Shown: positions 58,428-59,812 of the stretch, in pieces | Position numbering within the stretch: the stretch's first letter is position 1 | Layout of the letters: each line of letters begins with the position of its first letter | Origin: Escherichia coli | GTDB lineage: Bacteria; Pseudomonadota; Gammaproteobacteria; Enterobacterales; Enterobacteriaceae | DNA: 64,000 nt | Direction: 5' to 3' (one strand) | Assembly: GCF_001677475.2 (NCBI RefSeq) | Contig: NZ_CP015229.1 | Notes under the pieces: model-generated | The model's input: only the letters and a program-made list of their open reading frames with translations | Database searches by the model: none | What the model was told of the DNA's origin: nothing | Translations under genes and position numbers: made by a program

Positions 58428-59018
58428 ATGTGTGGACGTTTTGCACAAGCCCAAACCCGTGAAGAATACCTGGCATACCTGGCCGATGAGGCTGATCGCG
58501 ATATCGCATACGACCCGGAGCCTATTGGCCGGTACAACGTGGCGCCCGGTACCAAAGTTCTGCTCCTGAACGAACGCGACGAGCAGCTGCACCTCGATCC
58601 GGTTCTGTGGTCGTACGCGCCCGGGTGGTGGGATAAGCAGCCGCTGATTAACGCGCGCGTCGAGACGGCGGCCACTAGCCGCATGTTCAAACCTCTCTGG
58701 CAGCATGGCCGGGCGATCTGTTTTGCAGATGGGTGGTTCGAATGGAAGAAGGAAGGCGAAAAGAAACAGCCCTACTTCATTATCAACCCGGTCACTGGTA
58801 AGCCGGTCTCGGGTAATAACAAAGGCAGTATGTTGCTCATCTGGCGACCATTCCCGCGGGCAAACTGCCACTTCGCAACAGTGGAGAGGGATGAGTTGAT
58901 GACATTCGGAGCGAAACTTCTCGCCCGGTGGGAGGCCGCATATGGATTAAAGTACACCTCTGGTAATCCATGTATAATTAGATACCAGAGGAGCTTTGAA
59001 CCAAAAAAATATTATTAA
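58428..59018 (+). pseudogene. Truncated paralog of yedK (SRAP N-terminal region fused to unrelated C-terminal sequence)
   Basis: 196-aa ORF; first ~117 aa closely match YedK, remainder unrelated; upstream ~45 bp also resembles the yedK upstream region. Confidence 0.65.
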
Positions 59019-59812
59019 TTTCTATGTCTATAGGAGCCTCCAAGTCTAAATCCAAAAGTATATCTTTTAATATTATCAAACAAAAAAGCCTGCTCGTTAT
59101 TAAATATATTCAATTGAGACAGCTTTTCCATGAATGTTTTTGTCTCATCCATAAACTTCTCTGCAAATGAAGGATGTTTTAGCGCTTCAAAGAGTGTTGC
59201 GGAAAAATTTGTTTTTGCAAACATAGAGGCGCTTTGTAATTTATTTTGCCACTTAACTAAATAGTCATCACCTTCATTGTTTAATATTTCTTGGCTTGGC
59301 AGAACCAGTGCTGTTCCATGTGCTATAGCGTTCCGAAGGTGGAACATAGCAGTGAACGCATTTTTATCGGACATCATATCTTCAACCTTCAAGCCAGTAT
59401 AATCTTTAATCGCCTTTTTAAGATTATCCCAGCTCCCATTTGCTTCTAACTCTATATGCAAATTGAAAATCTTGTTATACGATCGAAAAATAGTTCTTGC
59501 GTTTTCTTTATTTGGTTCCGTTGCTGCAAGTTCCCCCATTGCATGGTGATCTTTCGATACAGCAGCGGTGAAAACCTGCCTCAAAATACCTTCAACAATC
59601 GCAGCATTCAGACTTATTAACGTGAGATTTCTGAATATGTTCTCATCTTTTAAAACTATTGTTTCTTTTGGGTTGCCATAGCGATCAAGTTGATCATAAT
59701 CCTTGTCTATTGCACCATTTTTAATCTTAATCGCAATTTCTTCGTATTGCTGAAGTAAATAAACATTAGTATTAAATATGTTAAATGAAGTTATCCTCGG
59801 AACAATTTCCAT
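59015..59812 (-). CDS. Hypothetical protein with a HEPN-type Rx4H motif; candidate abortive-infection/toxin RNase
   Basis: AT-rich ORF (272 aa from first ATG at 59833; 265 aa from ATG at 59812, which has a GAGGGG Shine-Dalgarno sequence); motif FHLRNAIAHG at residues 165-174 of the 272-aa numbering. Confidence 0.5.
   Translation of the reverse strand: MEIVPRITSFNIFNTNVYLLQQYEEIAIKIKNGAIDKDYDQLDRYGNPKETIVLKDENIFRNLTLISLNAAIVEGILRQVFTAAVSKDHHAMGELAATEPNKENARTIFRSYNKIFNLHIELEANGSWDNLKKAIKDYTGLKVEDMMSDKNAFTAMFHLRNAIAHGTALVLPSQEILNNEGDDYLVKWQNKLQSASMFAKTNFSATLFEALKHPSFAEKFMDETKTFMEKLSQLNIFNNEQAFLFDNIKRYTFGFRLGGSYRHRN

What the first reader, a model, noticed from the sequence alone, without database searches (positions are those of the whole stretch)
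58925..59020. Convergent overlap and hairpin at the yedK-fragment / HEPN-gene junction
The truncated yedK paralog and the HEPN-like gene end within 4 bp of each other on opposite strands. An inverted repeat CCTCTGGTA...TACCAGAGG lies just inside the fragment's 3' end. This could be a bidirectional terminator or a recombination scar marking where cargo DNA was joined to the yedK fragment.
Basis: seen in the sequence. Interest (0 to 1): 0.2.

Follow-up and report, generated by a model that had tools for sequence, protein, structure and literature searches.

The report
Moron gene's 3' hairpin, not a scar
The hairpin and the 4-bp tail-to-tail gene overlap are real, but they are an ordinary inherited feature of a prophage (the 3' stem-loop of a small HEPN-like add-on gene facing a phage methylase gene); the actual deletion scar that made the "yedK fragment" lies about 180 bp further upstream.

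Summary
ORF 58428..59018 (+) and ORF 59015..59833 (-) overlap by 4 bp (TTAA), and a perfect 9-nt inverted repeat lies at 58957-65/58983-91.

The "+ ORF" has three parts:
- prophage SRAP (yedK-like) codons 1-118;
- the last ~53 codons of a phage Dam methyltransferase, joined at 58778-58781;
- a 25-codon read-through tail, present because the Dam stop codon is lost (TAT at 58941-43).

A metagenome contig (L020) carries the same phage module, 99-100% identical. There the Dam gene is intact at 455 aa, yet the hairpin, the tail and the TTAA overlap are all the same. So the junction at 58925-59020 existed before the deletion and is not its scar.

Related HEPN genes in Klebsiella, Citrobacter, Pantoea and metagenome prophages all have a stem-loop 19-42 nt after the stop codon. 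Three base pairs change on both sides, and G·U pairs make the stem much more stable on the HEPN-sense strand.

The hairpin is most likely the 3' terminator or stabiliser of the HEPN moron transcript. It works in one direction at best. This is ordinary biology and of low interest.

The parts
58428..58781 (+). 5' half (codons 1-118) of a prophage-borne SRAP/YedK-like gene; a truncated pseudogene part
   Evidence: Pfam SRAP covers residues 1-120, profile positions 1-123 of 214. DNA is 92.9% identical to the full-length 223-aa SRAP gene at the left end of an intact prophage at the same site in E. coli 30EVA1, and the match stops at window 58781. The proteins are near-identical (3 substitutions) through KKQPYF and then diverge.
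58778..58781 (.). Real deletion junction (SRAP | Dam), with 2-4 nt of microhomology (CATT/TT). It joins the two ends of the prophage and removes its body.
   Evidence: SRAP reads ...CTACTTCATTcacc, Dam (L020) reads ...GGCATTTATCAACC and the window reads CTACTTCATTATCAACC. The blastn alignment to L020 starts at window 58780.
58782..58940 (+). Last ~53 codons of a phage N6-adenine methyltransferase (Dam, PF05869), fused in frame to the SRAP fragment
   Evidence: Pfam Dam covers residues 117-163, profile positions 123-168 of 169. PHROG DNA methyltransferase families match. DNA is 78-82% identical to the Dam 3' ends of Enterobacter phages and a plasmid, and that homology ends at the stop codon. 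It is 100% identical to the intact Dam of L020.
58941..58943 (+). Position of the lost Dam stop codon (TAT here; TAA in L013; TGA in Enterobacter phages). AT-rich DNA starts here.
   Evidence: Alignment (GCATGA against GCATATGG). The L013 sequence reads GCA TAA CGG ATT AAA G against the window's GCA TAT GGA TTA AAG. GC drops from 0.50-0.62 to 0.30-0.38.
58944..59018 (+). 24 further sense codons (25 with TAT at 58941-43) plus the stop TAA: a read-through tail of the Dam frame across the former intergenic spacer and the hairpin
   Evidence: Translation (...EAAYGLKYTSGNPCIIRYQRSFEPKKYY*). The same tail is present on the intact Dam of L020 (ORF 1512..2879) and in L012. It is absent where the stop is kept (L013).
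58957..58991 (-). Stem-loop in the 3' UTR of the HEPN-like gene. It has 9 perfect pairs, or 13 pairs with one bulge and an 8-nt loop on the - strand. The tail is UGUACUUUAAUCC. It starts 23 nt after the HEPN stop.
   Evidence: -16.4 kcal/mol, z -4.79. It is conserved with compensatory changes in L013, K. aerogenes L005/L009 and C. freundii L006. Non-homologous hairpins sit at the same position in L015, L016 and L007.
59015..59018 (.). TTAA: the two overlapping stop codons of the convergent ORFs
   Evidence: Sequence read directly and ORF coordinates. The arrangement is identical in L020 (ORFs 1512..2879 + and 2876..3694 -).
59015..59812 (-). HEPN-like gene. The product is 265 aa from the ATG at 59812, which has a GAGGGG Shine-Dalgarno sequence; the longest ORF reaches 59833. 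It is an AT-rich single-gene moron on the strand opposite to the early-left operon.
60641..62233 (+). Excisionase (60641-60886) and integrase (60932-62233) at the right end of the prophage remnant, next to fliE
   Evidence: Pfam DUF1233, Arm-DNA-bind_2 and Phage_integrase. The order xis-int-fliE is the same in E. coli 30EVA1 and FLI21.
57033..58261 (-). IS3-family insertion sequence between the old integrase remnant (attL side) and the prophage left end
   Evidence: 38-nt terminal inverted repeats. It is 99.8-100% identical to IS3-family copies in many E. coli genomes. orfA and orfB appear.

Best explanation
The hairpin at 58957-58991 is the 3'-end stem-loop of an AT-rich HEPN-like 'moron' gene (59812 to 59015, - strand). 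The gene sits tail-to-tail with the Dam methyltransferase gene of the early-left (pL) operon of a lambdoid prophage integrated next to fliE.

It most likely works on the HEPN mRNA. It would stop or pause transcription and/or protect the 3' end from exonucleases. That would let the gene be expressed from the repressed prophage without sending antisense transcripts into the pL operon. The pL transcript in the opposite direction would be expected to read through it.

The 4-bp overlap is secondary. In this phage lineage the Dam stop codon was lost (TAA/TGA to TAT). The Dam frame therefore runs 25 codons across the spacer and hairpin to the next TAA, which shares TTAA with the HEPN stop.

The 'yedK fragment' arose later. 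An illegitimate, microhomology-level deletion at 58778-58781 joined codon 118 of the SRAP gene at the prophage's left end to the last ~53 codons of Dam near its right end. This removed the prophage body.

Shown here: the anatomy, the prior existence of the junction in the intact phage, the conservation and covariation of the stem, and its strand asymmetry. Inferred: the terminator or stabiliser function.
For: (1) L020 is 99-100% identical to window 58782-61300. It has an intact 455-aa Dam (Pfam 3.9e-57) with the same tail, hairpin and TTAA overlap. L012 shows the same.

(2) The SRAP/Dam switch is at 58778-81.

(3) E. coli 30EVA1 has an intact prophage of about 45 kb at the same site. It has a full SRAP at the left end and gam-bet-exo-methyltransferases-traR-xis-int-fliE at the right end.

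(4) HEPN homologs always lie in lambdoid prophages, antisense to neighbouring early genes, and are convergent with Dam in five lineages.

(5) The stem is conserved with changes on both sides at 3 of 9 pairs. 91.7% of cells are paired, against 36-53% when the partners are slid, and 9 of 500 shuffles reach the observed value.

(6) Every lineage has a hairpin 19-42 nt after the HEPN stop, even where the sequence is unrelated. Energies on the HEPN-sense strand against the opposite strand are: L006 -23.8/-13.0, L015 -21.9/-11.1, L007 -20.3/-8.6, L016 -23.5/-21.5, and the window core -16.4/-13.0. This asymmetry comes from G·U pairs and points to selection on RNA.

(7) The tail after the stem on the - strand is U-rich in the close relatives: UGUACUUUA, UUUACUUUA, UUUAUCUUA.

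(8) GC is 30-38% in the cassette against 50-62% in its flanks. Morons are defined as units with their own promoter and terminator (PMC3594210).
Against: No canonical intrinsic terminator is called. The perfect repeat has a 17-nt loop, and the 13-bp version needs a bulge.

The U tract is short and interrupted in the window. It is absent in the distant homologs L016 and L007, where the stem is followed by A-rich sequence.

The stems in L013 and K. aerogenes each have one or two mismatches, and their folds are not better than shuffles (z 0.30 and -0.91).

Only four alignable lineages support the covariation. No sigma-70-like promoter was found for the HEPN gene. There are no transcript data.
Confidence: 0.7

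Rival explanations
1. Recombination scar: the hairpin and overlap mark the point where cargo DNA (the HEPN cassette) was joined to the yedK fragment.
For: Composition changes sharply at 58941. DNA homology to Dam genes of Enterobacter phages that lack the HEPN gene ends exactly at the Dam stop codon. So 58941/2 is an old mosaic boundary between phage modules.
Against: The DNA on the left of 58941 is Dam, not yedK/SRAP. The identical junction lies next to intact Dam genes in L020 and L012. The spacer and hairpin are homologous across L013, K. aerogenes and C. freundii prophages that also have Dam next to HEPN. The event that made the fragment maps to 58778-81.
Confidence: 0.04
2. Bidirectional terminator: the same hairpin ends both the HEPN transcript and the Dam/pL transcript. 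It would act either as a two-way intrinsic terminator or as a collision-type terminator between convergent genes.
For: The perfect 9-bp stem folds on both strands in the window (-13.0 on the + strand, -16.4 on the - strand; z -4.7 on the + strand). It sits between convergent genes. Bidirectional terminators that do not look like intrinsic terminators are reported between convergent E. coli genes (bioRxiv 10.1101/2022.10.23.513370).
Against: The + strand tail has only 3 U in 8. There is no A-tract / stem / U-tract symmetry; the T7 run lies upstream of the stem on the HEPN-sense strand. In homologs the + sense fold is much weaker. In this lineage the Dam frame is translated across the hairpin, so ribosomes should melt it. 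A block here would cut xis/int off from pL unless antiterminated; an N peptide gene is seen in the Pantoea relative.
Confidence: 0.15
3. DNA-level palindrome: a binding site for a dimeric protein or a site-specific recombination site that mobilises the HEPN cassette.
For: An imperfect 18-19-nt inverted repeat (TTAAAGTACACCTCTGGTA / TACCAGAGGAGCTTTGAA) sits at the cassette boundary. The HEPN gene is found in different slots of different lambdoid prophages.
Against: The arm sequence is not conserved; only the pairing is. G·U pairs make the structure strand-specific, which has no meaning for duplex DNA. There is no matching repeat at the other end of the cassette and no recombinase within it. The repeat occurs once in the window.
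Confidence: 0.04
4. Chance inverted repeat in AT-rich DNA, with no function.
For: The window contains about 16 other perfect 9-nt hairpin repeats. The stems in L013 and K. aerogenes are degenerate.
Against: The chance of one such repeat in a 250-bp stretch is about 2%. No shuffle folds as well. There are compensatory changes and a hairpin at the same position in seven lineages.
Confidence: 0.07

Closest known systems
Moron transcription units of lambdoid phages (e.g. HK97 gene 15; definition in PMC3594210)
   Same: A single extra gene with much lower GC than its neighbours. It is present in some related phages and absent in others, is oriented independently of the surrounding operon, and is followed by a stem-loop.
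   Different: No recognisable sigma-70 promoter was found. The 3' hairpin lacks a clean U tract. The neighbouring Dam frame now reads through the hairpin.
Rho-independent (intrinsic) terminators
   Same: A stem of 9-13 bp with 5 G-C pairs, -16.4 kcal/mol, 23 nt after a stop codon, followed on the HEPN-sense strand by a tail with 5 U in 8.
   Different: The loop is 17 nt for the perfect repeat, or 8 nt only if a bulged extension is allowed. The U tract is interrupted (UGUACUUU). The consensus scan does not call it. Distant homologs have hairpins with no U tract.
Bidirectional terminators between convergent E. coli genes (Ju et al. 2019, as cited in bioRxiv 10.1101/2022.10.23.513370)
   Same: It lies in the very short or overlapping spacer between convergent genes, with a hairpin that can form on both strands.
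   Different: There is no U-rich tail on the + strand, stability in homologs is strand-asymmetric, and no transcript data exist.
Internally deleted cryptic prophages of E. coli at the yedN-intG-fliE site
   Same: Only the two ends of the prophage are retained (SRAP at attL; xis-int at attR). There is an IS insertion and a duplicated integrase 3' end as the att repeat.
   Different: Here the deletion made an in-frame SRAP'::'Dam fusion ORF, which by accident looks like a 196-aa gene.

Membership tests
Intrinsic (Rho-independent) terminator, HEPN-sense strand | Stable G+C-containing stem directly downstream of a gene | tested here: met
   9 perfect pairs (5 G-C), extendable to 13 pairs; -16.4 kcal/mol, z -4.79; 23 nt after the HEPN stop.
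Intrinsic (Rho-independent) terminator, HEPN-sense strand | Short loop (3-8 nt) | tested here: inconclusive
   17 nt between the perfect arms. The loop is 8 nt only with four extra pairs and a bulged U. The scan, which needs an ungapped stem and a loop of 3-8 nt, reports nothing here.
Intrinsic (Rho-independent) terminator, HEPN-sense strand | U tract immediately 3' of the stem | tested here: inconclusive
   UGUACUUU has 5 U in 8, interrupted. It is better in L013 (UUUACUUU) and K. aerogenes (UUUAUCUU), and absent in L016 and L007.
Intrinsic (Rho-independent) terminator, HEPN-sense strand | Transcript 3' ends map just after the stem | not testable with these tools
   No RNA data available.
Bidirectional intrinsic terminator | Hairpin flanked by an A tract upstream and a U tract downstream, so that both strands read stem + U tract | tested here: not met
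   The + strand tail AGCUUUGA has 3 U in 8. On the HEPN-sense strand the run upstream of the stem is T7, not an A tract.
Recombination/deletion scar at 58925-59020 | Homology to the two parental sequences switches at this point, and the intact parent lacks the junction | tested here: not met
   The intact-Dam phage L020 is collinear and 100% identical across 58800-59700. The switch between SRAP and Dam homology is at 58778-81.
Phage moron | Base composition differs from the surrounding phage genes | tested here: met
   GC is 0.30-0.39 across 59000-59900, against 0.50-0.62 in the Dam/SRAP part and 0.44-0.58 in xis/int.
Phage moron | Present in some and absent in other closely related phages at the same slot | tested here: met
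   Enterobacter phage CobraSix, the E. asburiae plasmid-prophage, and E. coli 30EVA1 and FLI21 have co-directional small genes after their methyltransferase genes (Dam in CobraSix and the E. asburiae plasmid; other methyltransferase families in the two E. coli strains) and no HEPN gene.
Phage moron | Own promoter | tested here: not met
   No sigma-70-like site on the - strand between 59812 and 60015. The consensus scan is crude, so this is weak negative evidence.
HEPN domain (closest Pfam family: RiboL-PSP-HEPN, PF18735) | Rx4-6H motif | tested here: met
   R160-N-A-I-A-H165; R, N, H and the following G are invariant in 32 family members.
HEPN domain (closest Pfam family: RiboL-PSP-HEPN, PF18735) | Score at or above Pfam's gathering threshold | tested here: not met
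   19.9 bits against a 28.4 cut-off, E 7.4e-4. So it is HEPN-like but not a certified member of PF18735. PADLOC RTasHEPN scores 3.5e-8 over the motif region.
HEPN domain (closest Pfam family: RiboL-PSP-HEPN, PF18735) | Four-helix up-down HEPN fold | tested here: met
SRAP / YedK | Complete SRAP domain with N-terminal Cys2 and the downstream catalytic His | tested here: not met
   Only profile positions 1-123 of 214 are present. Cys2 is kept, but everything after residue 118 is replaced by Dam sequence.

The most novel reading that the evidence does not exclude
The conserved 3' stem-loop is more than a terminator. It could be a cis-acting RNA element tied to the HEPN RNase itself, for example an autoregulatory cleavage or binding site. 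Or it could be a switch in which translation of the extended Dam frame across the hairpin during lytic growth melts it and couples pL transcription to silencing of the HEPN gene. In this reading the small, uncharacterised, solitary HEPN family (54 clusters among 1.84 billion representatives) would be a new prophage-encoded defence or abortive-infection gene.
Probability: 0.07. Interest if true: 0.45.

Novelty: new member of a known kind. Interest (0 to 1): 0.13.

Why it matters
The main value is for annotation. The 196-aa "yedK paralog" should be annotated as a pseudogene fusion (SRAP'::'Dam plus a read-through tail). The deletion scar should be placed at 58778-81. The hairpin should be assigned to the HEPN gene's 3' UTR.

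The case also shows how loss of a stop codon next to a convergent gene can produce an apparent gene overlap.

The only item of wider interest is the neighbouring HEPN-like gene. It belongs to a very small, unstudied family that is carried as a solitary add-on gene in lambdoid prophages of several enterobacterial genera.

Tried and rejected
- **Rfam scan, 58200-60400, permissive threshold:** the only hit was a chance mir-7637 match (20.8 bits against an 88-bit gathering score, E 0.83). I take it that no known RNA family is present.
- **Promoter/terminator consensus scan:** nothing was called at the junction.
- **Tandem repeats near the HEPN gene** (to test a ToxI-like RNA antitoxin idea): none of relevance.
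- **A conserved partner gene for HEPN:** orf77 and orf82 occur with it only in the same phage (L012, L020) and in no other lineage. I dropped the two-gene toxin-antitoxin reading.
- **Scan of representative genomes with the HEPN alignment:** one distant locus on a 1-kb contig, of no use for context.
- **Viral contig scans:** they returned the K. aerogenes-type prophage and two distant relatives. The exact hairpin sequence was not found.
- **PHROGs:** no family for the HEPN protein.
- **PDB sequence search:** no hit.
- **REP, MITE or IS-end origin for the hairpin:** rejected. The repeat is unique in the window, and the IS ends are elsewhere, at 57033 and 58261.

Full report
**Observation**

The window has ORF 58428..59018 on the + strand and ORF 59015..59833 on the - strand. 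Their stop codons share the palindrome TTAA at 59015-59018.

A perfect 9-nt inverted repeat, CCTCTGGTA/TACCAGAGG, lies at 58957-65 and 58983-91, with 17 nt between the arms. It occurs once in the window and in none of 100 shuffles. A repeat of this kind is expected by chance in about 2% of 250-bp stretches of this composition.

The fold is stable:

| Stretch | + strand | - strand |
|---|---|---|
| 96-nt region | -28.4 kcal/mol, z -3.97 | -23.5 kcal/mol, z -2.84 |
| 35-nt core | -13.0 kcal/mol | -16.4 kcal/mol |

On the - strand the core forms 13 pairs with one bulge and an 8-nt loop.

**What the + ORF really is**

It is not simply a truncated yedK. Pfam finds SRAP over residues 1-120 (profile positions 1-123 of 214) and the C-terminal end of phage Dam (PF05869, profile positions 123-168 of 169) over residues 117-163. 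PHROGs agrees.

- The DNA match to E. coli SRAP genes stops at window 58781.
- The DNA match to Dam genes of Enterobacter phages and an E. asburiae plasmid runs from 58780 to 58941 and ends at their stop codon.
- In those relatives the sequence reads GCATGA. In the window it reads GCA TAT GGA TTA AAG. The Dam stop is therefore missing, and the frame continues for 25 codons into AT-rich DNA, to the TAA at 59016-18.

**Origin of the pieces**

The window matches the E. coli region amyA/yedE-yedK-yedL-yedN at about 97% identity. fliE and fliF are on the right.

In E. coli 30EVA1 a prophage of about 45 kb lies between the integrase remnant after yedN and fliE. Its left end is a complete 223-aa SRAP gene. 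Its right end is gam-bet-exo-methyltransferases-traR-xis-int. E. coli FLI21 shows the same right end.

The window keeps only the two ends. The protein is near-identical to the 30EVA1 SRAP (3 substitutions) through KKQPYF (residue 117) and then diverges.

The join is as follows:

| Source | Sequence at the join |
|---|---|
| SRAP | ...CTACTTCATTcacc |
| Dam | ...GGCATTTATCAACC |
| Window | CTACTTCATTATCAACC |

The junction is therefore at 58778-58781, with 2-4 nt of microhomology. This is the real deletion scar. It lies about 180 bp upstream of the hairpin.

**The junction at 58925-59020 existed before the deletion**

A DNA pattern from the 3' end of the HEPN gene retrieved a 38-kb metagenome contig, L020. 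Window 58782-61300 is 99-100% identical to it. The flanking fliE/fliF DNA is only 65-80% identical, so the host is a different organism.

L020 has an intact 455-aa ORF with a full Dam domain (E 3.9e-57). That ORF ends in the same read-through tail, the same hairpin and the same 4-bp overlap with the HEPN ORF (ORFs 1512..2879 + and 2876..3694 -). L012, whose HEPN is 99% identical, shows the same junction with Dam continuing past the point where the window switches to SRAP.

In L013 the spacer is homologous but the Dam stop is kept (GCA TAA CGG ATT AAA G). The overlap therefore arose by a small change (AC to T) in the window/L012/L020 lineage.

**The HEPN-like gene**

- Only 8 proteins match it among 5.8 billion, and 54 clusters match among 1.84 billion representatives.
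- The product is probably 265 aa. All homologs are 265-271 aa, and a GAGGGG Shine-Dalgarno sequence precedes the ATG at 59812.
- R160-N-x3-H165 is invariant.
- Pfam RiboL-PSP-HEPN is below threshold, at 19.9 against 28.4 bits. PADLOC RTasHEPN gives 3.5e-8.

In K. aerogenes, C. freundii and Pantoea the gene lies in lambdoid prophages between xis/int and the early-left genes, on the opposite strand. It is convergent with Dam (K. aerogenes, C. freundii, L013, L015, L012/L020) or with a PAPS reductase gene (Pantoea). In L016 a 37%-identical relative lies in the replication/nin region.

Related phages without the gene have co-directional small ORFs at that slot. GC is 30-39% in the gene against 50-62% in its neighbours. 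This matches the description of a moron (PMC3594210). No partner gene is conserved with it.

**The hairpin across lineages**

| Lineage | Stem arms |
|---|---|
| Window / L012 / L020 | CCTCTGGTA ... TACCAGAGG |
| L013 | CCGCTAATA ... TATTAGGGG |
| K. aerogenes | GCTCTAAT ... ATTTGAGC |
| C. freundii | CCTCTAATGTTG ... CAATATTAGAGG |

On the four-sequence alignment, 91.7% of cells are paired, against 36-53% when the partners are slid. Three of nine pairs change on both sides (C-G to G-C once, A-U to G-C twice). Nine of 500 shuffles reach the observed values.

L015, L016 and L007 have unrelated sequences but each has a 12-14-bp hairpin starting 19-29 nt after the stop. The stems are much more stable on the HEPN-sense strand:

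| Locus | HEPN-sense (kcal/mol) | Opposite strand (kcal/mol) |
|---|---|---|
| L006 | -23.8 | -13.0 |
| L015 | -21.9 | -11.1 |
| L007 | -20.3 | -8.6 |
| L016 | -23.5 | -21.5 |

This is the signature of G·U pairs, which points to selection on the RNA of the HEPN transcript.

**Function**

On the HEPN-sense strand the stem is followed by UGUACUUUAAUCC in the window, UUUACUUUAAUCC in L013 and UUUAUCUUAAUCC in K. aerogenes. On the + strand it is followed by AGCUUUGAACC.

The consensus scan calls no terminator here. The reasons are the 17-nt gap between the perfect arms and the bulge in the extended stem. The distant homologs lack a U tract altogether.

My best reading is a 3'-end element of the HEPN mRNA: a weak or non-canonical terminator and/or an exonuclease block. 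It would also keep antisense transcription out of the pL operon. The idea of a true two-way intrinsic terminator is not supported by the sequence. A collision-type bidirectional terminator, as described between convergent E. coli genes, cannot be excluded without RNA data. Rfam has no family for it.

**Verdict**

The feature is not a recombination scar of the yedK fragment. It is an ordinary inherited part of a prophage moron. Interest is low. The neighbouring HEPN-like family is the only part that might repay further work.

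Noticed in passing
window 58778-58781 (within ORF 58428..59018): In-frame SRAP'::'Dam fusion made by an internal prophage deletion with 2-4 nt of microhomology. The 196-aa ORF is a pseudogene chimera and not a yedK paralog.
   Followed up: yes
L020 (metagenome contig OASV01000156.1) 2641-5200 against window 58782-61300: The same phage module (Dam 3' end, HEPN, orf77, orf82, xis, 5' part of int) is 99-100% identical in a host whose fliE/fliF DNA is only 65-80% identical. This points to recent cross-genus spread of a phage that integrates next to fliE. Identity drops to about 90% inside the integrase gene at about 61300, which suggests a recombination breakpoint.
   Followed up: partly
window 56818-56958 and 62079-62219: A 141-nt direct repeat (79% identical) with an identical 19-nt core, TGCCCCATCCATGCCCCAC (56924-42 = 62185-203). 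One copy is the 3' end of the integrase gene and the other is an older integrase remnant, so these are probably attL/attR. A third, 89% copy of the core lies at 58353-71, upstream of the SRAP fragment.
   Followed up: partly
window 57033-58261: An IS3-family insertion sequence (1229 bp, 38-nt imperfect terminal inverted repeats, 99.8-100% identical to copies in many E. coli genomes) is inserted between the integrase remnant and the prophage left end.
   Followed up: partly
window 59015-59812 (-): The HEPN-like protein belongs to a very small, unnamed family: 8 hits in 5.8 billion proteins and 54 clusters in 1.84 billion representatives. E74, G75, R160, N161, H165 and G166 are invariant. It is always a solitary gene in lambdoid prophages, in at least three different genomic slots. 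It is a candidate prophage defence or abortive-infection gene.
   Followed up: partly
window 55513-56631 (-): The yedN-like gene (DUF5503 plus leucine-rich repeats, 372 aa) is intact here. It is a frameshifted pseudogene in E. coli 30EVA1.
   Followed up: no
window 51000-57050: The chromosomal backbone is at most about 97% identical to the best of 5,426 complete E. coli genomes. The window therefore comes from an Escherichia lineage outside, or at the edge of, typical E. coli.
   Followed up: no
window 59893-59920 (-): A weak terminator-like element follows orf77: GCTTAA-N8-TTAAGC and then ATTTTTCT. This suggests that orf77 and the HEPN gene are separate transcription units.
   Followed up: no
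L007 (Pantoea agglomerans) 2992-6798: A Pantoea prophage carrying a 59%-identical HEPN homolog also lies next to fliE, with the same type of integrase (Arm-DNA-bind_2) and DUF1233 excisionase. The fliE-adjacent attachment site is therefore used across genera.
   Followed up: no
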